DNA of 64,000 nt from a virus. Lineage: Duplodnaviria; Heunggongvirae; Uroviricota; Caudoviricetes. Each line of letters starts with the position of its first letter. The first letter of the stretch is position 1. Under the pieces are notes generated by a model. It saw nothing but the letters and a program-made list of their open reading frames with translations. It was not told the origin of the DNA and did no database searches. A program made the translations under genes and the position numbers. The stretch is taken from IMG/VR virus record IMGVR_UViG_3300021255_002129, one strand, 5' to 3'. Below, piece by piece: positions 33,769 to 60,400 of the stretch.

Positions 33769-33770
33769 AA

Positions 33771-34565: not shown

Positions 34566-35140
34566 TGAAATTATCAATAATAACACCATATTATAATTGT
34601 CTAAACTATCTTCAAAACTTAGTAAAGGTTTTAGAACCACAATTAACCAATGAAGTCGAATGAATTATTATTGATGATGGCTGCCATGAACAAGAACTTG
34701 ATAAAATTAAAGCAACTATAATACATTTATTAAATAATAGCGGATGTGCAGGAGTCCCTCGCAATTATGGATTAGATATTGCAAAAGGAGATTATATAAC
34801 TTTCGTTGATGCAGATGATTTAGTTTCTAAAGATTTTGTATCTAAAATAATAAATAAAATAAATTTAACAACATTTGATTATTGTTTAATGAGTTGAGAA
34901 AAAATAGATAAATCATTTTATGTAGACGTAACAACTGGAAGACCAGATTGAAACTGTAGTGTGTGAGGTATTATATATAACAAAAATAATTTAAAAAATG
35001 TGCGTTTTAATAATAAAAAATTTGCAGAAGATTATGATTTTAATCAAATAGCATTAAAAGGAAAAGAAGAGAGAATACTTGATTACTTATATTTTTATAA
35101 TAGCAATGAAAATGGACTATCTGCAAATTGGGAAGGATAG
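34565..35140 (+). CDS. family 2 glycosyltransferase (GT-A); four in-frame TGA
   Basis: 'LSIITPYYNC...IIIDDGC...FVDADD'. The ATG overlaps the preceding TAA. Confidence 0.7.
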
Positions 35141-35143
35141 AGT

Positions 35144-36256
35144 ATGGAAAATCAAGAACAATTTTATACAAATATATTCTATTTTGATAGAATAAATAAA
35201 ATAGGCGGAGTTGAGACTTTCTTTTACGAAATAGCAAAAAAATATTGTAATAATGATATTACTGTATTTTATTCTTTTGGAGATTTAAAACAAATCCAAA
35301 GATTAAAAAAGCTTATAAGAGTAGTTAAATACACAGGACAAAAAATAAAATGTAAAAAAGCATTTTTCAATTACAGTTTAAAGCCTATCGACAATATACA
35401 GGCGGAAAAATATTATGAAATTATCCATGCTAATTATAAAGATTTAGGTATTTATCCTAATGTTAGTCCAAAAATAGATGAATATATTGGAGTTAGTCAA
35501 TCTGTATGCAATGCATTTACAGAATTAACTGGTTTACCTTGCACGCTATGTTATAACCCAATTACAATAGATAAGCCTAAAAGAGTATTATATCTTATTT
35601 CTGCAACTAGATTAACAAGAGAAAAAGGAAAAGATAGAATATTAAAACTTGCAAAAGCATTAGATGATGCGAAAATCCCCTATGTTTGAACTATATTTAC
35701 AAATGATACTAAAGAGATAAAACATCCCAGAATAATCTTTATGGAGCCACAATTAAATATTAGAGATTATATCGCTAAATCAGATTATACTGTTCAATTA
35801 AGTGATACAGAAGCTTATTGTTACACGATGATTGAAAGTTTATTATTAAACGTCCCTATTATTGTAACTCCATGAAAATGTTTAAAAGAGTTAAATATAA
35901 CAGAAGAATATGGATTTATATTACCTTTTGATATGGAAGATATTCCTGTAAAAGATATTTATAATAAAGAATTTAATTTTAAATATAAATTAATTCCAGA
36001 TACTTGAAATAAAATAATTGAACCAAGCAAATCTACTTATCAAGAAGAATTAAATGCCAAATATATTGTAGAAGCATTAAAAACATATCAAGATAGAAAT
36101 TTCAAAGATGTTCAATTAGGAATTATTCCTAGTCCTGGTTCTAGATGGACGGTTACAAAAGATAGATTGGATTTATTGTTAGGAGAAAATGAAAATCAAG
36201 AGGCTTATGTAAAATTAATTGACATAGTTAAAGATGATAAAGGAGATGATATATAA
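35144..36256 (+). CDS. GT-B fold (GT1/GT4-like) glycosyltransferase; three in-frame TGA
   Basis: 'GGVETFFYEIAKK', 'ISATRLTREKGKDRIL' and an E-X7-E-like 'ESLLLNVPIIVTP' motif. Confidence 0.65.
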
Positions 36257-36762
36257 TGAATATCTTATCATTAGACCTTTCAACCAAATCAAGCGGCTGA
36301 GCTTATTTTGAAGATGGAGAACTTAAAGATCATGGATGCATTACATCTGCATCTACTGATTTAATTAAAAGAATATATATTATGAGAGATGGGATTGCGG
36401 AAATCCTTGATAAATATGCTGTAACCAAGATTGTTGTAGAAGAAGTTAGACCTGAAGGTGGTTACGGAGTAGGCAATACAAAAACTCATCGAGCTTTAAT
36501 GTGACTTCAGGCAGCAACCGCATTTTTAATTCATGATAATTACCCTTCTATTGAAATAGAATATATATATCCAAGTTCATGACGTGCAGCTTTAGGTATT
36601 AAAAATGGTCGCGGAATAAAGAGGACATCATTAAAAGAGCAAGATATACAATATGTTCAAGATAAATATAATATAAATGTAAATGATGATGAAGCAGATG
36701 CAATATGCATAGGTTTATCACAATATAAAGAAAAAGATGATAATGAAATAAATTGAGCATAA
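36256..36762 (+). CDS. RuvC-like Holliday-junction resolvase; three in-frame TGA
   Basis: 'LSLDLSTKSSGWAYF' (RuvC motif I-like) and 'DDEADAICIG' (catalytic Asp pair). It is the last gene before the convergent terminator. Confidence 0.7.
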
Positions 36763-43808: not shown

Positions 43809-45860
43809 CTAAAATCTTTCTAAAGCTCTTGTAGCTGATATTGACATCGTACTACTTATATCAAGAGGAATAGAAATACTTGAAATCATATAATCTCCAT
43901 AAATATCACTTTCAATATCCCTAACCCCAATTCTTGTATTCGGTTCTAAATGATAGATTGGAATACTTTGAATAGTAATACTTTCATTATAACTTGTATA
44001 TTCATGCAACATCATTTTTATTTCATTAAATGCTGAATTGGATGTTCCACCAAGAGCAAGTAAGTTAAATATTCCTGTAGTTACTTGAATATAGTTTTGA
44101 CCTTTAGCTTCACATTCTGCGCGTTTTTCATCAGTATCAGGTTGACCTAATTCTATAATAATAAAATCAGGTATATCTGGTTCAAATACGCAATTTATAT
44201 CATTTCTATTAACGACTTGACTGCGGCGACCGATATTACGAACACTGAACTTCGATATTGCTGCAGCAGAGTCTATAAAATCTAAATAGTAATCTATATC
44301 ACTAGGTGTTTTTAAGACCTCATCATAAAAGCCACCTGTATAAATAGTTTCACCTTTATCATCTATGTAAAAATCCTTTTGTAGATTATACAGCTTTGGC
44401 CACTCGTTCATTAATTCAGTATAGTAGTAATTAGAATCTATGCCCAGTGGCTCAGCTTGAACTCCTTGTAAATATAATTCACTTCTTCAATCTGTTGTTT
44501 TAACTTTAACAAATTGAGTTGTTTCACTATCTACTTCAACATATTGTTTTAAATCTCCATCTCAATAGTAAATAGTTCCTGTACTAGTGTCTTTATAATA
44601 TACACCTGCCGCACCATCAGTTTTAACTATTTCTGCATAACTACTATATAATATAGGCATTTTTGCTTTTGTTAATCCATCATCTGGGTCTTCATAGAAA
44701 AATACATCATATATATTTCCAATAGCAGGTTTAGTATCAATAGCTAAATGATATCTAATAGGAACATCGTTACCATTAGCATTTTTTCTAATTCCCCAAA
44801 CTACAAAATCATTTTTAATTTTATTAAATTGAGGACTATTAGAAAATGATGTAACTAAATTACTATTATTAAATTCATATACTGTTTTACCTTTACTAGC
44901 ATCAATTAAATAATCATTCTTATTCATTGTTTCTAAATCTAATGTTGCTTTTGTTGTGTTTAAATAATTTTTAATTTCTTGCCAATGAAAATTTCCTTCT
45001 GTATCATAAAAATATTCATAATTACCTAGCATATTTTTAATTTTATCTAAGATAACACACACATTATCTCCAGCATTTCCAATTAATTCACTAGGGCAAG
45101 TAAAGTTTGTAAACATATAACCAATATCTTCACCATACTCAAACATTTGATAAGTATGACCCGCGGCGTCCGCATAATTAGTTGACATTGTGTATGAACC
45201 ACTATCTTCAATTAAATACAATGGTGTATTTCCAATTCATTTCATTACTTTTTTTATTCTTGAAGGTACATCAGATATAATTATCTTACTTAATTGTTCT
45301 CCTCCAAAATGATTAACTACCTCCCTAATAATTTGTTCAAAGGTAGGTTTTGATATAACTCAATTTCCATTCTCGTCAATGGTTTCATATTGATCGAATT
45401 GCGTTGATGCAGGAATCACACCTCCGCATTCTCCATTTAACAAACACATTTTATCTCTTAATGAAACTTGTAATGAAGCTCCTCCAGTCGAACGGCTTAA
45501 TGAAGGAGCTATCATAACAAATGTCCCTTGTGGAAATCAAATCTTTTTATGTCTAATATATTGGTCTGTTGTATTAACATAACCAATTTCTAAATACATT
45601 TTTTTATTTATTGAAAACAAATTATCTAAACTTGTTATATTTGCATTTTCTTCTTTATCTATATAGCAAGATAAATTGACAGTTCTTCTTACATTTGAAT
45701 TACCATCTAAATTAAGATTGCCACCTGTTACAATTCCTTGAACTTCTTGTATAGGTCTTTCTTCTCAATCTAATATGGTGATTTTAACAAACTGTTCTTT
45801 TAAATGTTCATTATCTATTAGTTCTAAAAAACTTTTATCACTAGAATATTCATATACTTT
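43809..45860 (-). CDS. large tail tip/baseplate hub (Tal-like) structural protein, 683 aa with at least five in-frame TGA
   Basis: Continuous hand translation from the ATG at 45858-45860 (overlapping the upstream TAA) to TAG at 43809. It incorporates track ORFs 44562..45221 and 43809..44411, which share a frame. Confidence 0.5.
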
Positions 45861-48800
45861 TTTCATTACTCTGCATACCTACCTTTCATAATTTCACAAT
45901 GATAATCAATCAAGGCTTCAACAGGACAAAGTAAATCATCATTATTTGTAAATAGCCATCATTGGTCATTATGCCAAATAAATCTACTATTTGCTTCATC
46001 TATTAATCTTTGTAATATTAAAGCATATTGTCTATCTATTTCTTTATTTAATACTAAATGATAATAATCATCATAAGCTCTATCTAAACTAATAGTATAT
46101 GTTGAACCTAATTTTGACAATTGATCTGGATCTGTGGAAGCAGTCGCCTCATCAGGCCACTGTTCACGAGATTTCATTATATAAACTCCATCTCTATATT
46201 GTCTATCACCTGTTGGTATTAAATCTTCTTCATGATTTAAATTATTTTGAGTTTCATTTTCCTCATCTTTAGTTCCATCAATATATAATGAGCCTGTCCA
46301 TACATCTCCACCAACTTGTTCAATTCATTCTTCGTCTACTATTAATCCACCATCATCATCAATAGGTTGCAATACTCTATCAAATAATAATGTATAACTT
46401 GATGAAGGATGTTCTATATTATCTTGATTAACTGATGCAGTGTATTGTTCTGGTCATTGTTCTTTAGATTTAATGCTATATCATCCAGCAAATTGGTCAA
46501 TAGCTTCTAAATAATCATCTGCAAGAGTATAAACCCCATTTTTAATTAATTGAGATGTATCACTTACATATTTATCTAATATTATATTTGTTTCAATATA
46601 TTTATTATCGGGTAATGTTTCTCTTTCTTGCTCTGCGGCAGTAGCAGGTTCAAGATGGATACCAGCGAAATATAATCCCTCAATAGCAGAGCCCTCCGCA
46701 TCAAGAGCTAAAGTATGTGTTGGTCCAATAACATGTCTTTCAAAATCTGTATCTGCAGACTCTTTAACAAATATTACAGTACCTGGTTCAGCTTCAATTT
46801 TTACTCCATCTAAAGATAACATTATTTGTTGATAATTTGAATATTTTTCAAAATATTTATTCCATATATTTTGATAGATTGAATCATTTGGTTTAAATGC
46901 TCCTCATTTTTGTCCAACTCTTCTATAAAAACTACTAGTTTGAAATACTTTACTAGTATCTTCAGTTTGTTGTAAATTAATATGGTACTCTAAATTAACT
47001 TGAGTATCAACAGGAAAAAATAATGAAGTAATTTCTACGTTCTCACCTTTTAATTCATATATACCTTCTGGATTTATTATAATAGGTTTATTATTAACAT
47101 AAACTAAATAACCTAAGATTGCGGAATCTGGATTTTCTTTATCATCACCAAGATCATCTACTACACAGGGGCCATCTTCACCCTCTTTAATTAGGTATGG
47201 GTCACTTTCAAATTCTAATCTTAAGAAATCTAAATTTTGAATTGCAATTTTATAATTTTCTTTTGCATATTTTTCATATTTCTTTTGAATTAAACTTAAA
47301 GCCTCTGTATTTGCAGGTATTATTTCATTATATTGTCCTACATAATCACTAGCAAATTGTAATAATGTATCATAAGTTCCTAATGGAGAAATATTATATT
47401 TATCATAATTTTTAATTGTTGCCGCATCCACTTCATAAGCAGTTGCTGTAAATGAATATATTCTTCTACCTAATGTTGAATTAGGTGTTAAATTAATATC
47501 CATAATTTTAACAAGTATATTTCCTTCAGTAGCTGACCTGAATAATCTAACTTTATTTGCATATAAGAAATCCATAACTTTTTCTCTGAATTCACGCTCA
47601 TAAGTCCAATCGTTAAAATCATCTATTCTTACATTTTTATCTTTATTAAATTCAATATAATTATCTAGGCTGTCTCTAAACATTTCTTCTTTTGATGTTA
47701 TTAGATGTGATGGATCCATTAAATGAGTTATCGTACCTCCAATAGGAAATTGTCTATATTCAACATAGCCATTTCTTTTAATATATGGATATTTACTTCC
47801 TATTGTATCTGTGCGGGATTCACTTACTGTACGTTTGAACGAACTTACTGATGGATCAAATCTAATATTAAGTTGCCCATCTCCGCCAGTTAAATACATA
47901 TCATCAAATAACATCATGAATGGTTCATCCTCTGCGTGAATTGCGATACCTCTATTTCCAACACTACTTCTTCTTTGTGCTATATATTTATAATACACTC
48001 CACTTTTAATAGTATAGTCATATCAAGTATAATTTAATTTACTATTTTCTTCAAAAGACTCTGTATGAACATCTTCTCATATTGTAAAATTACTTTCACT
48101 TGATGTTCTTCTAATAGTTATATTACCAATAAAAGAATCGTCATCATCTTTGCTTTTAACATTAAGTACAATACAACCATTAATATTATCAAGAGTAGCA
48201 GTTAATGTAGCTTCAAGTTTATCAGCGTTTTCTTGGACTACCATAAATTCATATGTATCTTTTTCAGTATACATATTAGCAGTTTCATATTCAAAAGTAA
48301 AATAATAGCTTTCTCCTTCATTAAAAGCATATTCAAAAGTATAGTTAAATTCATTAATATTAAAATAAATATTTGAATATATTACACCACTATCTGATAA
48401 TAATTGATTATTTATATCGTATAATTTTATTTGATAACTTTTTAATGTATCTGTTTCCGCGGAATCCGCATATGTTAATCTACCAACCACATCTACATTA
48501 TTTAATGACCATAACGTTGTGTCTGCGGAAATATCGAATCCTGAAACACTAAGACTAGGTACACTAATCCCTCTAACTAAACATACTGTTGATCATTCAG
48601 AGAAGTTTGATAAATTTGCAGCAAGCCAGCTATCGATCGCTTGAGGCGTGTTTAAAGATACATCGGCGGCGCCTGCCGCAGTAAATCTAATTTGAACTTT
48701 GTAATATTGATTTATTTGAAAACCTTCTTCAATATCACTAGTTTTTATCTCAATATAATATTTATTATCTGATACTCTTGTTAAATCAGTTTTAATGTCA

Positions 48801-49024
48801 GTTAACATAATTTCACAAGGATATTTGCTTTTATCTAATACAGATAAATTGGTATTTTGATTAACAACTGTTACTTGTGCATTTTTTATATCATTTAAAC
48901 TATTATATAAAGAAATAGAGAAATATACTCTACAAGTATTTTTTTGTATATCACTACTTCCTACTAAAAACGCAGGCATGTAGGTATCCACAACTGGTGG
49001 ATATAAATTAATATTAACTGCCAT
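45861..49024 (-). CDS. very large tail/baseplate structural protein (~1054 aa, Dit-like position) with at least five in-frame TGA
   Basis: Track ORFs 48593..49024, 48077..48490, 46904..47998, 46481..46822 and 45959..46177 all share a frame and are each bounded by TGA. Gaps read without TAA/TAG. An internal repeat 'KSKEQWPEQYTAS'/'KSREQWPDEATAS' is present. Confidence 0.5.
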
Positions 49025-49055: not shown

Positions 49056-49508
49056 TTACTTATTTTCTTCTTTTTTATGAATTACTGATACTATTGGTAA
49101 TACTCTTATATCTTTCATAAAACCATCTATAAAAGTATTTCCGTTTTCTTCTTTATAATGTTTGTATCTAGCTTCTATACATTGAAGATTATAGTCATCA
49201 ATATAACCTAAATCATAACAAAAATAATGATGTTTTTCAGTAATCCAAGCTTTAATATCGTCTTTATCTGACTCTATTAAAACACTAATTGATTTAGCCA
49301 TTTTATCAATTTGTTTATTATGTGATTCTAACGTATCTATCATCTTTTGATGTAATTCTTCTACCGATTGTTGCTTACTTGTTGTTTTTGTTATTCTATT
49401 TTTTGCTCAATCATAAAAATCAACAACACCCTTAATAGCAAATGCTAACATTACAACAAAAATAGCTATATCAGTTAATGAATAATTTTTAAGTAAATCT
49501 AACATTCT
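49056..49508 (-). CDS. N-terminally membrane-anchored protein (150 aa), one TGA; possible lysis-associated protein
   Basis: Strong RBS GGAAGGAGATATAGA, then ATG. TM segment 'IAIFVVMLAFAIKGVV', then 'DFYDW(TGA)AKN...', in frame with track ORF 49056..49343. Confidence 0.45.
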
Positions 49509-49589
49509 ATATCTCCTTCCTATATAATTCTCATAATTCTATCTAATAATATATAAAAGTTACAGAAGAAAGATTAGATAAATTAGACC

Positions 49590-49630
49590 AAAATAAAAAA
49601 GATACTTTGCTTTATAAAGCAAAGTATCTA
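49590..49630 (-). terminator. rho-independent terminator (minus strand)
   Basis: GATACTTTGC...GCAAAGTATC hairpin with a flanking A/T tract. Confidence 0.6.
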
Positions 49631-49648
49631 TTATTTATAAAAATATTT

Positions 49649-49867
49649 TTAATTATTACTTTCTTCTAATGCTTCTAACCTTTCAATTATATTTTTTAAT
49701 TGTTCAGCAATACTACCATCTCTATCTACATTAATATCTCCAATAGTATCTTGTAAATCTTTACCATTTTTCATATCAACATCTTTAGCATCAACTGAAA
49801 TAGTATAAGTTTCTTCACTAACTGAACCGTCTGGATTTTTTATCTTAACAGTTTTAATTTTATCCAT
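49649..49867 (-). CDS. 72-aa protein consisting of the receptor-binding-protein N-terminal anchor module plus a short coiled coil
   Basis: 'MDKIKTVKIKNPDGSVSEETYTI' matches the N-termini of the 52379..54190 and 54889..57066 products. Confidence 0.4.
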   Translation of the reverse strand: MDKIKTVKIKNPDGSVSEETYTISVDAKDVDMKNGKDLQDTIGDINVDRDGSIAEQLKNIIERLEALEESNN

Positions 49868-49943
49868 AAATTAAACCTCCTTTTACGTCTTTGTTTCTAA
49901 TACTATGTGAAAAAGGATTAATTAAGATGGGTTATTTTTGACC

Positions 49944-49976
49944 AAAATAAAAAAGAGGAGTATTTAGTTACTCCTC
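49944..49976 (-). terminator. rho-independent terminator after the holin gene
   Basis: GAGGAGTA-TTTAGT-TACTCCTC with a flanking A/T tract. Confidence 0.6.
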
Positions 49977-50393
49977 ATCATCTTTAACTTCCCAAGTAAT
50001 GACTTCAGTGTCTGAACTAATATTTGCTAAATCTACAACTCCTTGAATTGCTTTCTTTCCTTGTGCCACAATAGTTGCAGTGACTACACCTAATACTGCA
50101 ACACTTGATAATGTATTAAGTAATTCGCTTGATAATAATATTACTCCAAATGCACTTGTAATCATTTTATTAATAAATGGTAACATAGTAAATGCAACAG
50201 CAACAAACACTGAGCATACATAAAACGCTAATATTTTTGTAATACCTTTAATCATTTTCTTTCCATTAAAAGTTTCTTTTCCTGACCAAATATTAATTAA
50301 TGTTCCAGTTACAATATTAACAATAGCAAGAATAGCTAATGCAATACCTAACCATCCCATTATTTGTAAAGTTTTTAAAATTGCTTCTACCAT
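49968..50393 (-). CDS. holin (multi-TM)
   Basis: 141 aa with three or four predicted TM helices and a charged C-terminus, located next to the endolysin. Confidence 0.6.
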   Translation of the reverse strand: MVEAILKTLQIMGWLGIALAILAIVNIVTGTLINIWSGKETFNGKKMIKGITKILAFYVCSVFVAVAFTMLPFINKMITSAFGVILLSSELLNTLSSVAVLGVVTATIVAQGKKAIQGVVDLANISSDTEVITWEVKDDEE

Positions 50394-50767
50394 AATATCA
50401 TGCGGCGGTCGTCGGTCTTAGAACTTTTAGTCTTGCTCTTACGCATGCCTGATCGGCTCCCGCGCCTCCTTTCCTTATTGTTTCCGCACTCTCCACCTTT
50501 AGTGCAATTATAACCAAAAAGTGGAATATTACTTTTGTAATAACCTATTAAATATTTTTCTAACCTAACAGCTTGCTCTTGTGTCAATCCACTAGATATT
50601 ACAATGTGTTTAATGTTTTTTCAGCCATATTTTTTAATAGGTTTATAGACTAACTGGCCTTTATAGCCTCGCCCATTTTTCCATCTAGACTCAGGTTTTT
50701 GGCCAGTTAATCCAATATATCGTTTCCCATTAGGGAAAATTAATTCATATACACAATAATTATGCAT
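50387..50767 (-). CDS. GIY-YIG homing-endonuclease-like protein inserted between endolysin and holin; at least one in-frame TGA
   Basis: 'VYELIFPNGKRYIGLTGQKPESRWKNGRGY' is a GIY-YIG motif and '...LEKYLIGYYKS...FGYNCTKGG' is I-TevI-like. The ATG overlaps the endolysin TAA, and the TAG stop overlaps the holin start. The C-terminal basic tail is encoded by an anomalously GC-rich patch (~50400-50480). Confidence 0.55.
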
Positions 50768-51945
50768 TATAGTTTTTGTAGACTTGATGCTGGGTAGAAT
50801 CCTGTAGTTCCAGATCCATTTCCAACTTGATATGGATAAGGTCTTCCATCCCAAATTCTTAAAATTTGTCTAGTCCATCCAATACCATATGCAGTATTAC
50901 TTCCACCATAAGAACTTCCATTACCAGTTCCTATAATCTTAACTTTATCTCCTACTTGTAATCCAGTTGGTTGTGGTGTAGGTTGTGGAGCAGGTTCATC
51001 ATATTTTTTAATTGAACTTTGATCCATCCATCCTAAGTCTCCTGTTGTATTATATGGATGCGCGCTTCCTGGGTTTTTTCTTGTAATATAAGTAACTTTA
51101 TTACTTACACTTCCTGCAGGACTAGCTGCATTAGAATTAACATATAGAGGTCCATTGATTATTACATGGTCTCCAATATTAAATGCATCACTTGGACCTG
51201 GAGTAGGTGTAGGGGCAGGACTTCCGCCATCTATTAATTTTTGAACGTCATCTGGTAAATATATAAAACATCTAAAGTAATAATTACTTGAACATCCCCA
51301 TCTACCATTATTATTTGTTCTAATTTGGTTCCAGAATATTGTGCTTGAGCCCCATCCAGATTCAGATGTATAAACTTGATTATTACTATCTACTCTTTCA
51401 ACGATTGCTACATGACCAGCGCCTGAGTTTCCCCAGCACATAATTGCTCCACGTTTTGGGGTTGAACCAGTTTTAAGCCCCGCTGTCTCCGCTCTTTCTT
51501 TAAAATTAATAGCATTGCAATTTAAAGTTTTATAAGTACATCCGCTTGTATCTCTTGCAATATTTATAATTTCATTAAATCTACCACTTGCATAACCTAC
51601 GCAGTTTGCTAATGCATTTGCTGGTGCATATAATGGATTACCTTTGATACAAGTATTCCATCCACCAGAACCTGTAACTATAAAGTTTTTGTTATTAGCA
51701 GGTCTGCTAATTCTCATTATAAAACCCGCAGCACCTATACCTTCAGGTTCATCTGCGTTAAGGTTTTCAATTTCATAATGCTCATCCGCATCATTTAATT
51801 CTTCAGGTGTGTCTGTGTTAAATAAATATTGAACATTTTCGTCATCAATATCATCTCTTAAAAAAGCTTTAGCAACCATAGTTTGCACTTCTGTAGGTGC
51901 CATTTCCACTCTTTTAATTCTTTCTTCACTTGATAATTGTGCCAT
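50767..51945 (-). CDS. endolysin: CHAP-domain peptidoglycan hydrolase with two C-terminal SH3b-like cell-wall-binding domains
   Basis: CHAP catalytic Cys 'ANCVGYASGRF' and His 'GAGHVAIVERVD'. A Pro/Thr linker 'PAPTPTPGP' precedes two SH3b-like repeats ('GDHVIINGPLYV...', 'LQVGDKVKIIGTGNG...'). Confidence 0.8.
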   Translation of the reverse strand: MAQLSSEERIKRVEMAPTEVQTMVAKAFLRDDIDDENVQYLFNTDTPEELNDADEHYEIENLNADEPEGIGAAGFIMRISRPANNKNFIVTGSGGWNTCIKGNPLYAPANALANCVGYASGRFNEIINIARDTSGCTYKTLNCNAINFKERAETAGLKTGSTPKRGAIMCWGNSGAGHVAIVERVDSNNQVYTSESGWGSSTIFWNQIRTNNNGRWGCSSNYYFRCFIYLPDDVQKLIDGGSPAPTPTPGPSDAFNIGDHVIINGPLYVNSNAASPAGSVSNKVTYITRKNPGSAHPYNTTGDLGWMDQSSIKKYDEPAPQPTPQPTGLQVGDKVKIIGTGNGSSYGGSNTAYGIGWTRQILRIWDGRPYPYQVGNGSGTTGFYPASSLQKL

Positions 51946-52029
51946 AGATTTTTACCTCCTTTATATAATTTGTAAAAAATAAAAACAACAATTAAAATAT
52001 TATCTTTCTCTTAATTATTTTTGAAATTT

Positions 52030-52060
52030 TAATTAAAATTATTATATATTTTAGCCCAAA
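52030..52060 (-). promoter_or_regulatory. candidate late promoter element (minus strand GGGCTAAAATATATAAT)
   Basis: One of three near-identical TTTTGGGYWAAAWATAWATAAT elements found just downstream of minus-strand terminators. Confidence 0.3.
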
Positions 52061-52378
52061 AAAAAAGAAGCAAAAACAATTTTACTTTTCCTTTTATTAT
52101 AGTAATTCTAGAATCTAACTTATTTTGTTCTTCTTTCGCATATTTTATCTTAATAATAAGTTTTTCTGTAGATATAGCTGTAGTATTAACTCTATCAAAT
52201 GTTTTTTAAGTCCTTTACATTGTTTTTTAATCATCAAATTTATGTCTAAAAGTTTTTCTTTCATATTTTGTGACATTCTTTACTCTTTCTTTTTTTATTA
52301 ACTATTATACAAAATATTTATTAGCAATAGTTGGTAAAGTTTTAATAGTTTTTATTTTGCTTCTTTTTTAAATATTAA

Positions 52379-54190
52379 TTAGGATGTTGTTTTTTGTATT
52401 GTAACACTTGCCAAGATATTACCCGATTCTATACTTTCAGCAGACGGAAATCGTTTTCTATATGAAAAAATAGGCACATTCGATGAATCTATACTTATAT
52501 TAGTGTTAACATCATTTGTTAAAGCATTATTTCCTACTTGTGCATATAAATCGTATACGTCTATAGATGAGTCATTACTAAAAGTAATAGTTCTTTTTTT
52601 AACCATTACAAAAGTCCACGTTCTAATATATGAATTGTATTTGTCAATTACTTCAATTGTGTTTGAATTGCGAATTTTTATTGTTGCATCAAAAACTATT
52701 CCATTTCTGATTCTTATTATTGGCGAATTTAAAGTAGTAGAAAGTATAAAACTACATAAATAATAATACGAATTTAAATCAAACGTTTGTCCACTATAAT
52801 ATGGTGTTATTTCAGAATTATTATTTAACTGTAAACAATATGCTGGATCATCATAATTAACTAAATTATTAGTATTATTAAATTTATTATTGGACAAATG
52901 AATATTATCATTAGCTATCATATATCTATAATCACTAGCATGATTAAATCTTATAAAAGCACAATCACCTTTTAAAGCTGAATTAAACTTACTATTTGTA
53001 ATTGAAATATATGCTTGTTTTCTTTCTCCAATATAAATTGCTGAAGTTTCACTATTTTCACTAAATGCATCATAATAATACACACAACAATTTGTTAAAA
53101 AGTAGTTTCCATTATCATTATCAAATTCAAAACCTCTAGCATAAGTATCAGCATAACAATTTGAAAGAACAGCACTCCCTTGTGTAAACAAAAAACCAAT
53201 AGTCGTATTTTTTAAATCATCTGTAGATTGGCTATTATATAAAGCTGTACAATGAATATCATCAAACGTTTGAAAACCACCTGTCATTTTAATACCAATC
53301 TGACATCCATCAATTCTTATATGAACTATTTCATTATCATAAGAGTCAATCTTAATAGCTGTTCCTTGATTACTATCTTTTCTAAAAAAATCACAATATG
53401 ATACTTTTACATCACCACTTGTATAACGTTGGTTAAGAGATAAATACAACCCAAAATCTTCTATATTTTTAAATACTGTTTTTGCTAATTGCACTAGTTG
53501 TCTACCACTGTCTATTACCATACCTTTTGATACATTAGAACAATCAATAATACCGCCTTCAACAAAAATAACATTATTAGCCTTTGTTCTACTATAAGTT
53601 CCTTTAGTATCATCTAAGCCAATTTCAATCAATGTCTCTAGTTTTTCATTAGAAATATTTTTAATTAGTGCATTTTCATCTAGTTTAAGATTTACACCAT
53701 AATTATTAGCTTGATAAACTATAATTTTATTTGTTATTCCATAGTCTCCTTTTGGGAAATAAATTGTCTTTAGAGGGTTCTCATCAATAGCTTTTTGAAT
53801 GGCTTGTATATCATCATGTATTCCATCGCCATAAGCACCATATTGTTTAATATTAATAAAATCTTCAGCAATCAATGTAGCATATTTATCATTGCTTAAT
53901 ACTTCTTGATAATCAGTTTCACTTTTTTCATCAGTTATCTTATATGTAGCTCCACCACCATCATTAATCTCATAATATCCAAGCGTTACTACCATATCTC
54001 CAACTTTTAATTTCGTATCAGCTTTCATGTCTGCAACACTGTTATAATAATAAGGTTTTTTATTCAACTTTAATTGAACAGACTCACCATCACTAGTCGA
54101 TACATTCTGAGCTTCTGCTCCAATAGGAATATAATCAGTAAAAGTGCCATCTTGTTTTTTTATTTTAATTTTCTTAAATAAATCTGCCAT
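52379..54190 (-). CDS. tailspike/receptor-binding protein with pectate-lyase-superfamily (right-handed beta-helix) depolymerase domain
   Basis: 'IKQYGAYGDGIHDDIQAIQKAID' is the hallmark motif of PF12708. The N-terminal anchor 'MADLFKKIKIKKQDGTFTDYIPI' is shared with the other fibre proteins. Confidence 0.7.
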   Translation of the reverse strand: MADLFKKIKIKKQDGTFTDYIPIGAEAQNVSTSDGESVQLKLNKKPYYYNSVADMKADTKLKVGDMVVTLGYYEINDGGGATYKITDEKSETDYQEVLSNDKYATLIAEDFINIKQYGAYGDGIHDDIQAIQKAIDENPLKTIYFPKGDYGITNKIIVYQANNYGVNLKLDENALIKNISNEKLETLIEIGLDDTKGTYSRTKANNVIFVEGGIIDCSNVSKGMVIDSGRQLVQLAKTVFKNIEDFGLYLSLNQRYTSGDVKVSYCDFFRKDSNQGTAIKIDSYDNEIVHIRIDGCQIGIKMTGGFQTFDDIHCTALYNSQSTDDLKNTTIGFLFTQGSAVLSNCYADTYARGFEFDNDNGNYFLTNCCVYYYDAFSENSETSAIYIGERKQAYISITNSKFNSALKGDCAFIRFNHASDYRYMIANDNIHLSNNKFNNTNNLVNYDDPAYCLQLNNNSEITPYYSGQTFDLNSYYYLCSFILSTTLNSPIIRIRNGIVFDATIKIRNSNTIEVIDKYNSYIRTWTFVMVKKRTITFSNDSSIDVYDLYAQVGNNALTNDVNTNISIDSSNVPIFSYRKRFPSAESIESGNILASVTIQKTTS

Positions 54191-54327
54191 AAAGCGCGTC
54201 TCCTTTCATTCTTTTAAATTAAAACTAATGTATAATAAAATTATATATACTATAATTCATTCTTTCTAATTCTATTTAAATATTGATTAAAATAAATGAG
54301 TTGTTTTTGTCCAACCAATGTTTAAAC

Positions 54328-54370
54328 AAAATAAAAAAGACTGCGGCAATCACAGTCTTTTTTATTTTTA
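54328..54370. terminator. bidirectional-looking rho-independent terminator
   Basis: AAGACTG-CGGCAATCA-CAGTCTT with an A-tract 5' and a T-tract 3'. Confidence 0.5.
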
Positions 54371-54392
54371 TATACTTTATTTCAATAGTAAA

Positions 54393-54870
54393 ATTATCTC
54401 TTGCTAAATGCCCATCTTTCTATAACTATATTTACAGCCTCATATAGCGACTTTCTAACACATCTAAAGGAATTTATATTAGCTATATTAGAAAGTGTTG
54501 TAAAAGGGCTATGATTATCTATTGTACTATTCAAATGGTCTAAAACATCATTACAATTTTTATCTACAACAGAACTATCTGCAATTAAGTAGTTCTTATT
54601 ATCATAAAATACATGATATGCTCTAACTTTTATTTTACTTTTAGTTTTTTCTGGATTAGATAATCTAAAAGCTTGTCCACCTTGTGGGTAGCAGCAACTA
54701 TTATATTTCCCTGTACTAAATCATTTACATATTCAAGTCCAGTTTCTAAATCTAAATAGTATGTTCCATTATCTTCTTTATGAATTTTAAGCTTCAGTCG
54801 GAATTATTATTTTATCTCCATTTGATGAAAACAACTTGTCTGTTGAATTAAATAATTTAATCTTAAATTA
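54393..54870 (-). pseudogene. disrupted small gene downstream of the M14 fibre gene (possible fibre-assembly chaperone remnant or -1 frameshift site)
   Basis: Two protein-like minus-strand frames abut at an A6 run (~54640-54660) and there is no clean start (ATG-GAG-ATA-AAA-TAA-TAA). The downstream frame ends with '...VNIVIERWAFSKR*'. Confidence 0.3.
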
Positions 54871-54888
54871 AATAGTTTAAATATAAAA

Positions 54889-57066
54889 TTAGTCAATAAC
54901 ACTAACTTCATTAAATTTATAATCATTCTCACAAATATACTTATTCTTTATAATAACATTTTCAAGTAATGAAACAACTGTTGTTATTGCAATTTTCCTC
55001 ATGTCATCTCTACTTCCTGTATAATCATCACCAGACGTTGTAGCAAGTTCAATTAAAAAACCATGCAAATTCATAACACCACTATACCATTCATCAAAAG
55101 AACCATGAAACTCACCAGTTTTCTTTAAAGTAAAGCAATTTTGGTTATTTGTATATTCTGTTTTTAACCAATCAAAATTAGAACGCATTTGTGAATTTAA
55201 GGCTTTAATGGTAGAATAACCAATATCCAAATCTGATTTAAAGCCACTTGCAAAATATCCAATAACACCACCAGCAGTCAAAGAAGCTGTTGAATGTCTA
55301 TTAATAACTAAGAATATTTTATCTTTGTTGTTACGAATATAGTCACATAATATTTGAGTTTCAATTTCACTTTCAGGATATTGTCCTGAAGAATTGTATT
55401 CATTATCACTATATACCCAATTTGCATTGAAATTTCTATTAATATTCACATTATTTCCATTATTTCTTATATGGTGTTCATAACCATATGGGTTTATTGT
55501 TGGTATTACTTCAAATATGACATTATCAAATAAATTCTTTAAAGCATCATTTGTACCATAATTGTCCAATATGTCTTTAAACATCATATAGTCATCTAAT
55601 GCAATAGTTTCTTCATTACCATGCATTGAACCAACATATAGAATTGTTAATTTTTGTTTTGGTATCTGTTGTAATGCTATATTTTCATTGTGTGAATTAA
55701 TAGTGTATTTTCTTATTTCTAGGTTATCTGTAGTAGTCCCAAGAACTGTTTTAGTAATAAATGATGAATAAGTATTTAGTAACCCATCCCATAAATCATA
55801 TAATGTTGATAATTTATTTGTAGTATAATATGGAACAATTGCCTGATTAAAATTATATTTAGAAAATTGAGAGCAAATTTCTATAATTTTACTTATATTA
55901 TTATTTTCAGGATTAATTATATATTTATCATAGTATAAATTTAATGTCATATGATTTAATGCATTATTTACTCTTTTGGCATTAAAATTTTCAGATGATG
56001 AACCATCATCGATTGAAAATCTAATATAACAATCTTGATTAATGATGAATTTATCTATTCCATATGTTCTATAATCTATTAAATACGATGAATCTTTATC
56101 ACTAAAAGTACAAATATTAAATTGAACATTGCCATCACTACTAATTGATGAACCTTTTAACACTTTAATATAATCAATTGTTCTAAAACGTGATGGGAAT
56201 GTATTATTAATTCCTGTTGATGAAATTTGACCCTGTTCAAAATTTGAATATGATAAATTATGTTTATTATACAAATTATCATTAATATTTTGTATTCTGT
56301 TCTCTATGTCTGTATTTTTTGATTCTTCTAATAAATTTAATGTTATATGAGATAAAGCTGAGTCTACTCTTTCTTCATTAAATGTTTCAGATGAGCTACC
56401 ATCATTAATTGAAAATCTAATATAACAGTTTTGAGAAACAATGTAAATGTTTGTTGAAAATGTTCTATACTCTAACAAAGAGCTTGTATTTTTATCACTA
56501 AAAGTACAAATATTAAATTGAACATTGCCATCTGTTTCAATAGAAGTTCCTTTAAGCACTTTAATATAATCTTTAGTTCTAAATCGTGATGGAAATGTTG
56601 TGTTTATTCCAGAAGAACTTATTTGACCTTGTTCAAATTTTGAATATGATAAATTATACTTATTATACGAATTATCAATAATATTTTGTATTTTTTTATC
56701 GTCTTCATTTAATCTTTCATTAATTTCTTCATAATCGCTACTTGCTTGATAAAGTCCACCATCTACCCAAGTTGTACCATTGTAATAATACCAATGACCA
56801 TCAATAGTTAAAACATAAACTCTTGTTGTATCAGTCATTTTACTTATTGAATTTGCTACTAATGGGCTTCCACTTGCTAAGCTATTTATTTGATTTTGTA
56901 AACTATTGATACTAGAATTAACATTTATAACATTAGCTTTATTATTTAATTCATTAGTCAATGTATTTCCATTAACATCGACATGGTCACTATCAACAGC
57001 TAATGGAATACTATCACTATATGAACCATCTTTATTTTCTAATTTAACATATTTTAATTTATCCAT
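54889..57066 (-). CDS. tail fibre with internal duplicated domain and C-terminal M14 zinc-carboxypeptidase-like domain
   Basis: Shared N-terminal anchor 'MDKLKYVKLENKDGSYSDSIPL'. Two ~120-aa repeats are ~70% identical ('NLSYSKFEQGQISSSGINTTFPSRFRT...' and 'NLSYSNFEQGQISSTGINNTFPSRFRT...'). M14 motifs 'SMHGNEET' (HxxE), 'NPYG', 'NRNF' and 'INRHS' are present. Confidence 0.7.
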   Translation of the reverse strand: MDKLKYVKLENKDGSYSDSIPLAVDSDHVDVNGNTLTNELNNKANVINVNSSINSLQNQINSLASGSPLVANSISKMTDTTRVYVLTIDGHWYYYNGTTWVDGGLYQASSDYEEINERLNEDDKKIQNIIDNSYNKYNLSYSKFEQGQISSSGINTTFPSRFRTKDYIKVLKGTSIETDGNVQFNICTFSDKNTSSLLEYRTFSTNIYIVSQNCYIRFSINDGSSSETFNEERVDSALSHITLNLLEESKNTDIENRIQNINDNLYNKHNLSYSNFEQGQISSTGINNTFPSRFRTIDYIKVLKGSSISSDGNVQFNICTFSDKDSSYLIDYRTYGIDKFIINQDCYIRFSIDDGSSSENFNAKRVNNALNHMTLNLYYDKYIINPENNNISKIIEICSQFSKYNFNQAIVPYYTTNKLSTLYDLWDGLLNTYSSFITKTVLGTTTDNLEIRKYTINSHNENIALQQIPKQKLTILYVGSMHGNEETIALDDYMMFKDILDNYGTNDALKNLFDNVIFEVIPTINPYGYEHHIRNNGNNVNINRNFNANWVYSDNEYNSSGQYPESEIETQILCDYIRNNKDKIFLVINRHSTASLTAGGVIGYFASGFKSDLDIGYSTIKALNSQMRSNFDWLKTEYTNNQNCFTLKKTGEFHGSFDEWYSGVMNLHGFLIELATTSGDDYTGSRDDMRKIAITTVVSLLENVIIKNKYICENDYKFNEVSVID

Positions 57067-57121
57067 TAAAATCTTCTCTCCTTTCTTAAGATTGAGATTA
57101 TATATCTCATTTCTAAATCTA

Positions 57122-57163
57122 TATCAAAAGAAGGGACAAATAATTATCTTATTTTGTCCCTTC
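57122..57163 (-). terminator. rho-independent terminator (minus strand)
   Basis: Perfect 11-bp stem GAAGGGACAAA/TTTGTCCCTTC flanked by an A/T tract. Confidence 0.6.
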
Positions 57164-57406
57164 TTCATTAATACTTGCGGCAACCGACTCTTCGGTTTTA
57201 GAATTAGATTCTTCATTTGTTTGGCTAGCTTTCAATTCTTTTTTAGCCATTTCTGCACGTTCTATATCTTCTTTTTTACAAAATTCAAAATATTGTTGTT
57301 CAATTTCTGTCATTATACTTTTCATAATAAAATATATTGCATCTATTGATATTCCACTTTCATTTAAATCCTGTACAATTTTTTGTTCTAAATCTCTAAA
57401 TATCAT
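57149..57406 (-). CDS. hypothetical protein (85 aa)
   Basis: RBS AAAGGAGTAAAAAG, then ATG. True TAA stop. Confidence 0.45.
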   Translation of the reverse strand: MIFRDLEQKIVQDLNESGISIDAIYFIMKSIMTEIEQQYFEFCKKEDIERAEMAKKELKASQTNEESNSKTEESVAASINEEGTK

Positions 57407-57425: not shown

Positions 57426-60400
57426 CTAATAATCTTTAACCGCAACAAGAATTCCATTTGTAAAACGTAATCCAATAACACTATTATCTGTTTTTCTAAT
57501 AATAATTTCATTTGTTGCTTGGCCAGTCTCTCCAGAAGAAGTATGTAAATTTCCAATATTATACAATCCATTTCCATTCATTTGAATAGCTCCTCTAACA
57601 TTTAAACCAGATACTTTTGGATGATTAGTTTCTATTCCCATTTCAAGATAATATTCTCCCTTATGAATACTAATACTTCCACCTGTAATAGTAGCTCCTC
57701 CAACAGTACCTCCATTAATACTAGAACCACTAATATTTCCACTAAACTGTCCATTACTAGCATGAAGAGTTCCATTACTTTCAATTCTAAAACGAGTACC
57801 ATAATTAATTAAATCAGCAGTCCCTTGTGACCATCCACCATTATCTATTCTAATATTTTTAAAGTGGGCGTTTCCTGCTGCATTAATCTCTCAATTTGGT
57901 CCTTTAAGAGTTCCATTTGCAGAGATATGTGTATTTCCATTATTGCTTTGTAATTCAGTTCCATTAATAGTTCATCCACCTATTTGACCGCTAGACGAAT
58001 ATAAAGCCCCATCTTTATCAACAGCAAATTTATTGTTAATAGCTAAATTTAAGTTATCTCTATTAGTTCCATTAATAGTTCTACTAAATAATCCATTATT
58101 ACTTGAAAATCTAATATTTGCAGAACTACTTTTTGTTCCCGTATAAATTGAATCATCATCAATATTAAACCCAGCTAAAGTACCTCCGCCTTTTGCAGTT
58201 AGATGTCCATCTTTATCAACTTTAAAATTACCATTTCCTCATTCAATTAATGGCGTAGTTAAATCAATTAACATTCCTTGATTATTTTTATTTCCAACGC
58301 CATAATTTAAAGGTTTTCCACTATCATCATAATTTTTTCAATAAGCGCTACTATATAACATAGCTTTTTCTGCGGCGGGGTCTAAAATAATTTGACCTGG
58401 GCCATGTTTACCAAATATTGCAGATCCATCTTCTGCATTTAAGAACATTGTACGTTCACCAAAATTATATCCAAACATACCAATATCTTTTTTATTTTTA
58501 CCAGCTTCTTTAACACTACCCATTAACATACCAGTAAAACTATTATCTGCTTCTTTTTGACCTGCACCAACTTGTGGAGCTAATATAACTCCATTACCAT
58601 TTTTATCTATGCTAACACTATTACCATCTCATCCGTTAATAGCTGCATTTCCATATTTATTTAATAATAAATGAATTGGTATATGAATTCTAGCAACTTC
58701 ATTTGCACTCTTATCTATTATGATACATTCAAGAGCATTAGTTACACACTCACCATCAAAATCATCTATTGGTTTATATGATTTTGTATTCCTTGCTGCG
58801 GGAATATCACCTCTTGAATATTCTTTTAAGAATTCTTTATTTATCCAACTTCTATTAACTGAGTCATATATTCTTCCTCGAATATTCCAATCATAATTAA
58901 CTCCATTAGTTTTAGTTAATACGCTGATATCTTCAGTGATATTATTTATTACTTTCGTTACTTTTAATTCAAAAGGCTTTGAATTATCATATTGCGGCTT
59001 GCGGCCATCTGCACTATAAGTCGCATATCTAAATCCTGTGTCTTCAACTAATGAAACTCCATATCCGCTTACCGCAGTTGCAGTTATAACAGGCATTGTA
59101 GCATAATATTCAATATTATCATAAGTAATTATAACTTTAACAATATTAGCAGGTGAATTAACACCTTTATATCCGCTATAACTAAATGTTCCATTATCTG
59201 TAACACCTAAACTAGTTTCATCATAAACATTGCTTGTGTATTTATTTTGTAAAATAGTTCATTTAACATTTGCAGTTTTTCCTTCAGTAGTATTACCACT
59301 TGAACTACCATCAAATATTTTTTCTCCACTATGCCATAATTGAGCATTAAACCATTTATTATTTTGTCTTGGAGTATAATTAATATTTCCATTTAATATC
59401 ATTGGATATCCAAAACCAGTGTTTTGAGTATTAGGAACTATTTTACATACGAATTCAGTTCCATTAGTTCCTGGTTCTCCTTCTTTAACAAAAGTAAAAT
59501 CAGTTTCCGCAACTAAATTCATATCTTTATAATCAACCGTTAATTTAATTTTATTATTGTTCTTTTTAATATCATACTTATCTCTAATTGTATATTGAAG
59601 ATACATTTCTCCTTCAACTGTTTTATAATCATCTTGAACAATCCAATCATAGCTATCAGGAACTTTTAGCATCGTATCTTCAAGAGGAACTGTTCAACTA
59701 AACTTACATTTATCTATAATATCATCTGCTAAAGCATTACCTAAATTATCATAAACTGTAAAACTTAATGGTAATATAACTTGAGGATTATCTAAACTAT
59801 CACTTACAGGTGATATACCAGCCTCATCGTATTTAAAAGTTTGTGTTCCATTATTTATAATTAAAGTATAAGCATCTTTTTTATCTAAATCATTTCTAAT
59901 AACAATAGAAGCAGTTCCAATATATATTCCATTGTGGTAAACTGAACATTTATAAGTACTAAAATTAGTTATTGTATTCACTTGTAAATGATGTATTTTT
60001 CTACCTTCTACTCTCATTATTTTATCATATCTATTTATAATTGTCAAGTATTGATTTAATTGTCCTTGACTTGCTGCGGCCATAGCTCTTTCTGCAGCAA
60101 TGTCAGCTTTAAGTTGCGTATAACCGACAACTGCATTGTTATATTCTGTATTATCTTCAGTGGTTTCCGTCAAAGCATAGAAATTATTATTATTATCTAT
60201 TTCAACTCATTGATAAGTATATTCATTACTAGTTGACTCTTGACCATTAATTTTACAAGTTAATGTAGGATTTCCAATATCATAATAGAATTGTTCGCCC
60301 TTATCGCTTTCAATACTAATCTCATAATTAGATGAATAATTAGTAACAGTAATAACCCTACTTAATTGAATATTATTATAAATAACAACACATTTATATT

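What the first reader, a model, noticed from the sequence alone, without database searches (positions are those of the whole stretch)
43809..49024. Two very large TGA-rich structural ORFs (683 and ~1054 codons) that are invisible to a standard-code ORF caller
All track fragments in 45959-49024 share one frame and are separated only by TGA, and the same holds for 43809-45221. Hand translation of the gaps gave no TAA/TAG, no internal RBS-plus-start pairs, and one TAA-ATG overlap between the two giants. A standard annotation would shatter these into about ten short 'hypotheticals'. Their position and size suggest Dit/Tal-like baseplate or tail-tip proteins.
Basis: seen in the sequence. Interest (0 to 1): 0.6.

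Follow-up and report, generated by a model that had tools for sequence, protein, structure and literature searches.

The report
TGA-recoded phage tail-tip genes
Two long genes of a large gut phage are interrupted 14 times by TGA, which this phage reads as tryptophan; this kind of stop-codon recoding is already known, and one gene encodes the central hub of the tail tip.

Summary
ORF A (49024→45866, 1052 aa, 8 in-frame TGA) and ORF B (45866→43809, 685 aa, 6 TGA) have no TAA or TAG in frame. They are joined by a TAATG stop/start overlap.

TGA means tryptophan. Across 68 in-frame TGA sites in the B orthologs of the ten TGA-recoded members (window included), standard-code relatives have Trp at 70% (background 1.1%), then Phe and Tyr. 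TGA and TGG also swap between close relatives. A 94–97% identical relative carries a Trp-type tRNA with anticodon UCA beside its normal tRNA-Trp(CCA).

The phenomenon is known: the phage resembles the described 'Agate' phages and is a distant relative of phAss-1. Full-length 1052-aa and 685-aa proteins are already in public protein collections. This is therefore a new member of a known kind.

Two side observations in related loci may be more novel:
- The UCA tRNAs carry a conserved extra arm that mimics a Trp anticodon loop.
- Some TAG-recoded relatives appear to read TAG as Glu rather than Gln.

The parts
45866..49024 (-). ORF A, 1052 aa, stop TAA. In-frame TGA codons start at window coordinates 48595, 48079, 48025, 46906, 46483, 46456, 46327 and 45961 (aa 144, 316, 334, 707, 848, 857, 900, 1022). 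A multi-domain beta-sandwich virion protein, PHROG 30026, function unassigned. Residues about 836-1012 are acidic and predicted disordered.
   Evidence: (P0121 100% identical)
43809..45866 (-). ORF B, 685 aa, stop TAG. In-frame TGA codons start at 45767, 45539, 45362, 45239, 44564 and 44489 (aa 34, 110, 169, 210, 435, 460). A gp27/Mu gp44-like baseplate hub or Tal-type protein. Hits PHROG 32343 and PHROG 1887 'tail protein', plus a weak C-terminal DUF5048 match.
45864..45868 (-). TAATG junction. The TAA stop of A overlaps the ATG of B by one base, which suggests translational coupling.
61665..63944 (-). C-terminal part of the tail tape measure protein, with 3 in-frame TGA. The frame stays open to the window end. 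It is upstream in the same transcription direction.
57426..61370 (-). 1314-aa tail-region protein directly after the tape measure gene, with 8 in-frame TGA. No family hit.
49056..57216 (-). Genes between the tail genes and A, in transcription order: a Zn-carboxypeptidase-domain protein, a pectate-lyase-like tail fibre, a CHAP endolysin (0 TGA), and small membrane proteins (holin-like by eye).
32824..36762 (+). The most TGA-dense block of the window, with 24 TGA against 4 TGG. It holds a Stealth-type glycosyltransferase, two GT2 and one GT1 glycosyltransferases. A fifth ORF looks RuvC-like by eye only (no Pfam hit).

Best explanation
The window is part of a roughly 135-145 kb phage from gut or rumen metagenomes. 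The phage is siphovirus-like and most likely infects Bacillota. It reads TGA as tryptophan in many of its genes.

ORFs A and B are each translated as one polypeptide through 8 and 6 UGA codons. Decoding is done by a phage-encoded suppressor tRNA with anticodon UCA and tRNA-Trp identity elements, most likely charged by the host TrpRS. That tRNA lies outside the window, in the tRNA array about 19-20 kb beyond its left edge.

B is the gp27/Mu gp44-type hub (Tal-like) of the tail tip. A is made just before it, from a coupled TAATG junction. A is a large beta-sandwich-rich partner protein of the tail tip whose precise role is unknown.

Replication genes are nearly free of TGA, so recoded genes can be completed only once the suppressor is expressed. 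This is the published 'code switch as late-gene timer' model.

Shown here: the ORFs, TGA = Trp, the hub fold of B, and the suppressor in a near-identical relative.
Inferred: charging by host TrpRS, the timing role, and A's location in the virion.

TGA = Trp:
- In a standard-code relative (L002), TGG sits opposite 8 of the 14 window TGAs, TAT or TTT opposite 3, GGA opposite 1, and gaps opposite 2.
- The window and L001 swap TGA and TGG at six positions.
- Across the 68 TGA sites in the B orthologs of the ten TGA-recoded members, the 43 standard-code members have W 70%, F 11% and Y 7%, against a W background of 1.1%. At columns at least 90% conserved, 39 of 40 TGA occurrences fall on Trp columns.
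- The cultured standard-code Enterococcus phage VRE9_2 has W at A316, B34 and B110.
- AlphaFold models fold continuously through the TGA sites.

Suppressor tRNA:
- Contig IMGVR_UViG_3300037400_002591 is 94-97% identical to window 48-9487.
- It carries a tRNA with anticodon TCA at L086 17176-17271, 5 nt before tRNA-Trp(CCA).
- That tRNA has A1-U72, G2-C71, G3-C70, G4-C69, G5-C68 and G73, the bacterial Trp identity set described in PMC9976931.
- All 13 phage tRNA(UCA) tested in an E. coli extract inserted Trp (PMC12636597).
- One contig has both a TGA-recoded B gene (L127) and this tRNA type (L098).

Uneven use of TGA:
- Plus strand 1-32.8 kb: 18 TGA against 98 TGG. The 1318-aa Pol III alpha gene has 0 against 19.
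- Glycosyltransferase block: 24 against 4.
- Minus strand: 30 against 60.

Hub fold of B:
-.

Synteny:
- Enterococcus phage VRE9_2 has the order tail, holin, endolysin, A-like, B-like, then a convergent replication block.
Against: - No tRNA lies in the window itself. The suppressor is inferred from a relative, not from this exact genome.
- Some replication-side genes also carry in-frame TGA. The RecJ-like gene 15402-17222 has one at codon 104, just after its DHH-type motif (by eye). The early/late split is therefore not clean.
- The endolysin has no TGA at all.
- B's structure was predicted on a 98% identical proxy with a shallow alignment (pLDDT 73).
- No peptide data exist.
- A's function is not established by any hit.
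Confidence: 0.88

Rival explanations
1. The host itself uses genetic code 4 (a Mollicutes-like bacterium), and the phage simply follows its host. There is no phage-driven code switch.
For: - The GC content is low, at 28.6%.
- When TGA is read as sense, all 67 ORFs I called end in TAA (52) or TAG (15), so none needs TGA as a stop.
- TGA also occurs in some replication-side genes.
Against: - TGA use is very uneven. Long Trp-rich replication genes have none, including Pol III alpha at 0 TGA against 19 TGG.
- A near-identical relative encodes its own tRNA(UCA) next to tRNA-Trp(CCA).
- The B gene exists in standard (43), TAG-sense (28) and TGA-sense (9) forms within one phage family.
- Cultured relatives infect Enterococcus, a standard-code host. 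The literature also lists an Enterocloster phage in the group.
- The published survey infers standard-code hosts for such phages.
Confidence: 0.08
2. TGA is decoded as something other than Trp: selenocysteine (ARAGORN labels the tRNA 'SeC') or glycine (code 25).
For: - ARAGORN calls the 96-nt tRNA(TCA) 'tRNA-SeC'.
- One window TGA (A707) aligns with Gly in L002.
Against: - Of the 68 TGA sites in the B family, 70% align with Trp and most of the rest with Phe or Tyr. Gly is not among the top eight residues.
- The tRNA has the 7-bp acceptor and 5-bp T stem of an ordinary tRNA and the Trp acceptor identity set.
- True tRNA-Sec-like genes found in the same search look different by eye: a longer acceptor stem and no CCA-type loop.
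- Fourteen Sec residues in two structural proteins would be without precedent.
Confidence: 0.02
3. The TGAs are real stops. The region encodes many short products or decaying pseudogenes.
For: This is what a table-11 gene call gives. Deposited records of relatives are annotated that way.
Against: - One frame stays free of TAA/TAG over 1052 and 685 codons (P about 1e-33 and 1e-22).
- There are thousands of full-length homologs.
- Amino-acid conservation of 90-96% with L001 runs across the TGAs.
- Standard-code orthologs are uninterrupted.
- No in-frame ATG follows any TGA within 8 codons.
Confidence: 0.01

Closest known systems
'Agate' clade of stop-codon-recoded gut phages (Borges et al., bioRxiv 10.1101/2021.08.26.457843)
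   Same: - Genome size class of about 127-154 kb.
- TGA-, TAG- and standard-code members in one clade.
- Replication genes largely in standard code, with structural and lysis-side modules recoded.
- A GC-skew switch, and a suppressor tRNA.
   Different: Clade membership is defined by terminase phylogeny, and no Agate sequence was available to compare, so it was not tested. Here the densest TGA use is in a glycosyltransferase block, and the endolysin has none.
phAss-1 / proposed Phassvirus group (Babkin et al. 2023, PMC10607447; OQ749652)
   Same: A distant homolog of B (32% aa identity, 99% coverage). Both are roughly 136-kb human-gut phages with a very long tape measure protein, large tRNA arrays and recoded structural genes.
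   Different: phAss-1 recodes TAG to Gln using tRNA-Sup(CTA). The paper describes no TGA recoding in the group (one mention of TGA in the whole text).
Enterococcus phages EF1, EF5, VRE9_1-4 and H1 (about 134-142 kb, cultured, standard code)
   Same: Syntenic A-like (PHROG 30026) and B-like (PHROG 32343) gene pair after the lysis cassette, next to a convergent replication block. Trp at three aligned TGA positions.
   Different: Only 26-28% identity. The A-like protein is 617 aa and the B-like protein 921 aa. There is no recoding.
gp27 / Mu gp44 / Tal N-terminal hub fold (T4 gp27, Mu gp44 1WRU, 80alpha gp59, phi812 hub)
   Different: Sequence identity is 8-16%. B is 685 aa with additional C-terminal domains. 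Its gene does not directly follow the tape measure and Dit genes.
crAss-like and Lak phages with late-gene stop-codon recoding (Yutin 2021, PMC7886860; Peters 2022, PMC9523058)
   Same: The same principle: a stop codon read as sense in late genes with the help of a phage suppressor tRNA.
   Different: These are unrelated phage lineages infecting Bacteroidota hosts (from the paper abstract and my own knowledge). The codon mostly recoded, and proteomically validated, is TAG to Gln.

Membership tests
Stop-codon-recoded phage, TGA to Trp (code-4-type) | Conserved long ORFs interrupted only by TGA, never by TAA or TAG | tested here: met
Stop-codon-recoded phage, TGA to Trp (code-4-type) | In-frame TGA aligns with Trp in standard-code homologs | tested here: met
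   70% W at the 68 TGA sites of the B family, and 39 of 40 occurrences at conserved columns.
Stop-codon-recoded phage, TGA to Trp (code-4-type) | Phage-encoded suppressor tRNA with anticodon UCA | tested here: inconclusive
   None in the window. Present in a 94-97% identical relative about 19-20 kb beyond the window's left edge.
Stop-codon-recoded phage, TGA to Trp (code-4-type) | Recoding concentrated in late (structural and lysis) genes, with early genes compatible with the standard code | tested here: inconclusive
   There is a strong bias: 18 TGA against 98 TGG in the replication block, versus 30:60 and 24:4 elsewhere. But some replication-side genes contain TGA, and the endolysin has none.
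Stop-codon-recoded phage, TGA to Trp (code-4-type) | Peptides spanning the recoded codon | not testable with these tools
   Needs virion or metaproteome mass spectrometry.
gp27-like baseplate hub / Tal | gp27 / Mu gp44 hub fold | tested here: met
gp27-like baseplate hub / Tal | Gene immediately downstream of the tape measure and Dit genes | tested here: not met
   B lies about 12 kb downstream of the TMP stop, after four tail or enzyme genes and the lysis cassette.
gp27-like baseplate hub / Tal | Trimer at the distal end of the tail tube | not testable with these tools
   Needs cryo-EM of a cultured relative.
Dit (distal tail protein) | N-terminal Dit / tail-tube-like ring domain, or a Sipho_tail-type family match | tested here: not met
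Dit (distal tail protein) | Gene directly upstream of the Tal/hub gene | tested here: met
   The TAATG overlap between A and B.
'Agate' clade (Borges et al.) | Placement within the clade on the large-terminase tree | not tested
   The terminase is outside the window, and no Agate reference sequences were available. The resemblance rests on described traits only.

The most novel reading that the evidence does not exclude
The recoding system behind these ORFs may itself be unusual, in two ways.

(1) The UGA-reading tRNA of this phage group is a 93-97-nt tRNA-Trp derivative. After its UCA anticodon arm it carries a second arm with a 5-bp stem and a 7-nt loop. The stem covaries, while the loop (C/G)UCCAAA is conserved and mimics the tRNA-Trp anticodon loop. 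It may keep TrpRS recognition of a tRNA whose real anticodon has changed.

(2) The same phage family seems to flip between four code states: standard, TGA to Trp, TAG to Gln, and TAG to Glu. I found no report of the last one for phages.
Probability: 0.35. Interest if true: 0.75.

Novelty: new member of a known kind. Interest (0 to 1): 0.3.

Why it matters
For this window, the main consequence is practical. With table 11, about a third of the late region would be annotated as fragments, and the tail-tip hub would be missed. Such genomes need TGA read as Trp (table 4 or a multi-code caller).

Biologically, it adds one more lineage to the known set of gut phages that recode TGA. This lineage is abundant in metagenomes and has cultured standard-code relatives on Enterococcus.

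The family has standard, TGA-sense and TAG-sense members, plus cultured relatives. That makes it a good system for testing how and why phages switch codes. The side observations (the anticodon-mimic arm and the possible TAG to Glu code) would matter for tRNA identity rules and for genetic-code engineering, if confirmed.

Tried and rejected
- **Plus-strand reading of the coordinates.** Rejected because all three frames are full of TAA/TAG.
- **TAG or TAA as the sense codon in the window.** Neither opens these frames.
- **Pfam and PDB searches for A and B.** Pfam on A, and PDB sequence and profile searches for both, gave nothing usable.
- **Structure prediction on B itself.** I used P0001, which is 98% identical.
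- **tRNA and Rfam scans of the window.** None found.
- **Walking along the relative's contig with exact-match DNA search.** Gave only about 3 kb per scan. I switched to protein-anchored loci.
- **Search for CUA suppressor tRNAs in the Glu-type contigs.** No locus I hold contains one. tRNA-Glu anticodon stems are too variable to design a probe. A generic anticodon-loop pattern would also hit tRNA-Arg(UCU), so I did not run it.
- **Selenocysteine, glycine and pseudogene readings.** Rejected (see the rival explanations).
- **Literature searches** for the extra tRNA arm and for TAG to Glu in phages found nothing specific. The searchable library is incomplete, so this is not proof of novelty.
Full report
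**1. The observation**

The window has 28.6% GC, and its GC/AT skew flips at about 37 kb. Genes therefore run on the plus strand up to about 36.8 kb and on the minus strand after that.

On the plus strand, the interval 43809-49024 is full of TAA/TAG in every frame.

- ORF A starts at ATG 49024, preceded by a GGAG-rich RBS, and ends at TAA 45868-45866. It is 1052 aa with 8 TGA and 8 TGG.
- ORF B starts at ATG 45866 and ends at TAG 43811-43809. It is 685 aa with 6 TGA and 3 TGG.
- The two overlap in TAATG.

From base composition, the probability of no TAA/TAG is about 1e-33 for A and about 1e-22 for B. After each TGA, the next in-frame ATG lies 8-107 codons away, and nine of the fourteen have no SD-like motif upstream.

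**2. What TGA encodes**

Three related IMG/VR loci gave a natural experiment:
- L001 (94% B identity) is TGA-recoded.
- L002 (56%) has no in-frame TGA, so it uses the standard code.
- L003 (49%) is open only if TAG is sense.

Codon-level alignment places TGG of L002 opposite 8 of the 14 window TGAs, TAT or TTT opposite 3, GGA opposite 1, and gaps opposite 2. The window and L001 exchange TGA and TGG at six positions.

A larger set of 80 B-family loci splits into 43 standard, 28 TAG-sense and 9 TGA-sense. Across the 68 TGA sites of the ten TGA-recoded members (window included), standard-code members have W 70%, F 11% and Y 7%, against a Trp background of 1.1%. At columns at least 90% conserved, 39 of 40 TGA occurrences fall on Trp columns. 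Five of the six TGAs in the window's B gene lie on columns where W is the commonest residue among the 43 standard-code members (25 to 42 of 43).

The cultured, standard-code Enterococcus phage VRE9_2 has Trp at A316, B34 and B110. TGA = Trp is therefore well supported. Gly, Sec and 'real stop' are not.

**3. How it is decoded**

The window has no tRNA and no Rfam match. Contig IMGVR_UViG_3300037400_002591 is 94-97% identical to window 48-9487. Walking upstream along it reached a tRNA array holding 13 tRNAs and a tmRNA.

The array includes a 96-nt tRNA with anticodon TCA at L086 17176-17271. It sits 5 nt before an ordinary tRNA-Trp(CCA). ARAGORN calls it 'SeC', but it has an ordinary 7-bp acceptor stem and 5-bp T stem. 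It also carries A1-U72, G2-C71, G3-C70, G4-C69, G5-C68 and G73. This is the bacterial Trp identity set summarised in PMC9976931.

A 2025 preprint found that all 13 phage tRNA(UCA) tested inserted Trp (PMC12636597). One contig carries both a TGA-recoded B gene (L127) and this tRNA type (L098). Charging by the host TrpRS is inferred, not shown.

**4. Distribution of TGA in the window**

I called ORFs with TGA as sense and counted Trp codons by region:

| Region | TGA | TGG |
|---|---|---|
| Plus strand, 1-32.8 kb (replication block) | 18 | 98 |
| Plus strand, 32.8-36.8 kb (glycosyltransferase block) | 24 | 4 |
| Minus strand (tail and lysis side) | 30 | 60 |

- In the replication block, Pol III alpha was confirmed by Pfam and has 0 TGA against 19 TGG. 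The other assignments there (gyrase, ligase, DnaB, RecJ-like, NrdD) were made by eye.
- The glycosyltransferase block holds one Stealth, two GT2 and one GT1 enzyme by Pfam. A fifth ORF looks RuvC-like by eye only.
- All 67 ORFs end in TAA (52) or TAG (15).

The bias fits the published 'late genes are recoded' picture, but it is not clean. The RecJ-like gene has a TGA just after its DHH-type motif (by eye), and the CHAP endolysin has none.

**5. What the proteins are**

The transcription order on the minus strand is as follows:
1. Tape measure protein (PHROG 34405/4211).
2. A 1314-aa protein with no family hit.
3. A Zn-carboxypeptidase-domain protein.
4. A pectate-lyase-like tail fibre.
5. A CHAP endolysin.
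6. Small membrane proteins.
7. A, then B.
8. A 234-aa and a 424-aa protein, then further ORFs ending in fibre-like proteins (collagen-like and LRR by eye).

A matches PHROG 30026, of unknown function. Its model has pLDDT 74.9, with residues 836-1012 disordered. It matches only generic FN3/macroglobulin-type beta-sandwich arrays. No Pfam or PDB signal appeared, even for separate segments. 'Dit' is therefore unsupported. What remains is a position directly upstream of the hub gene, with a coupled junction.

Enterococcus phage VRE9_2 has the same A-like/B-like pair after its lysis cassette, an 8-kb tape measure gene and no annotated sheath.

**6. Comparison with what is known**

Stop-codon recoding in late genes of large gut phages is established (Borges et al.; Yutin 2021 and Peters 2022). 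The description of the 'Agate' clade fits this window well: 127-154 kb genomes, members with TGA, TAG and standard codes, standard-code replication genes, and a GC-skew switch. I could not test membership.

phAss-1 is a distant relative that recodes TAG (Babkin 2023). That paper describes no TGA recoding in the group.

Public protein collections already contain A at 100% identity and B at 98%, as full-length proteins, with thousands of relatives on contigs of up to about 145 kb. In contrast, the GenBank record of phAss-1 still shows the B ortholog as five fragments.

Verdict: a real and correctly perceived feature, and a new member of a known kind.

**7. Side observations in related loci (outside the finding)**

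(a) *Extra arm in the UCA tRNAs.* An exact search for the UCA anticodon arm in IMG/VR returned 32 loci. Thirteen distinct Trp-like tRNA(UCA) carry an extra arm right after the anticodon arm, with a 5-bp stem and, in most, a 7-nt loop.
- The stem covaries: 4 of 5 pairs change on both sides and 95% of cells are paired, against 38-47% in the slid controls.
- The loop UCCAAA is invariant and resembles the tRNA-Trp anticodon loop CUCCAAA.
- The invariance of the UCA arm itself is by construction of the search.

(b) *TAG read as Glu or as Gln.* Among TAG-recoded relatives, TAG falls either on conserved Gln positions or on conserved Glu positions, lineage by lineage. The pattern was found in B and agrees in A, in the replication-side genes and in codon swaps:
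- B gene.
- A gene.
- Replication-side genes.
- Codon swaps between close relatives: TAG exchanges with CAA/CAG in one group, and with GAA/GAG (158 Glu against 9 Gln) in the B genes of the other. In the A genes of that second group the signal was mixed (23 Glu, 18 Gln).
- Per-locus typing gave 14 'Glu', 4 'Gln' and 6 unclear.

I could not recover the CUA tRNAs of the Glu-type contigs, and I found no report of TAG to Glu in phages.

Noticed in passing
L086 17176-17271 (contig IMGVR_UViG_3300037400_002591). Also L095, L096, L098-L100, L102-L106, L109-L111, L114, L115, L118.: UGA-reading tRNAs with a Trp-type acceptor (A1-U72, G73) carry an extra arm after the UCA anticodon arm, with a 5-bp stem and, in most, a 7-nt loop. 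The stem covaries in 4 of 5 pairs. The loop UCCAAA is invariant and mimics the tRNA-Trp anticodon loop. It may preserve TrpRS recognition. ARAGORN mislabels them tRNA-SeC.
   Followed up: partly
B/A loci L142, L144, L146, L151, L152, L154-L157, L165, L166, L169, L172, L177 (Glu-type) versus L135, L145, L153, L168 (Gln-type). Replication loci L056, L068, L070, L071, L082 versus L022, L027, L035.: In TAG-recoded relatives, in-frame TAG aligns with conserved Glu in many lineages (for example VNHFGG[TAG]QL, LAF[TAG]KGYNAL) and swaps with GAA/GAG. In others it aligns with conserved Gln and swaps with CAA/CAG. This suggests a TAG to Glu code next to TAG to Gln in one phage family. The matching CUA tRNAs were not recovered.
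   Followed up: partly
window 32824-36762 (+): This five-gene block has the highest TGA density in the window, at 24 TGA against 4 TGG. It holds Stealth, GT2 (two) and GT1 glycosyltransferases, plus an ORF that looks RuvC-like by eye. It is not a structural or lysis module.
   Followed up: partly
L086 12587-13009; L009 781-1189: Relatives encode a tmRNA inside the tRNA array (Rfam RF00023, 76.6 bits). This is intriguing in a phage that creates stop-codon ambiguity.
   Followed up: no
window 7568-8500 (+): A 310-aa ORF needs one TGA, at codon 193, to join an N-terminal coiled-coil part to a C-terminal part that looks like a GIY-YIG nuclease by eye. It recalls the TGA-rich intron or homing endonuclease described for Agate phages.
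   Followed up: no
window 15402-17222 (+): The RecJ-like gene has in-frame TGAs at codons 104 and 583, the first just after its DHH-type motif (by eye). Recoding is therefore not confined to late genes.
   Followed up: no
window 33771-34565, 36256-36762 and 19067-19375 (+): A TGA lies 1-5 codons before the TAA/TAG stop (codons 263 of 264, 167 of 168, 97 of 102). These may be relic TGA stops backed up by a second stop.
   Followed up: no
L176 and L099 (contig IMGVR_UViG_3300032038_000012): This contig carries the extra-arm tRNA(UCA), yet its B ortholog has no in-frame TGA. Either the suppressor arrived before recoding of this gene, or recoding lies elsewhere in the genome.
   Followed up: no
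window 45866-49024 (-), A residues about 836-1012: This acidic region is predicted disordered (pLDDT 26-47). It contains an internal repeat, SKEQ[TGA]PEQYTAS and SREQWPDEATAS, in which TGA and TGG occupy the same repeat position.
   Followed up: no
L014 10998-12911 versus window 1110-1425: The near-identical relative has about 1.6 kb of extra DNA between the gyrB and gyrA regions compared with the window. This could be a mobile insertion or a homing endonuclease.
   Followed up: no
OQ749652.1 33178-35358 (L200): The deposited phAss-1 record annotates its B ortholog as five separate hypothetical proteins. The published genome thus still carries the standard-code fragmentation in GenBank.
   Followed up: yes
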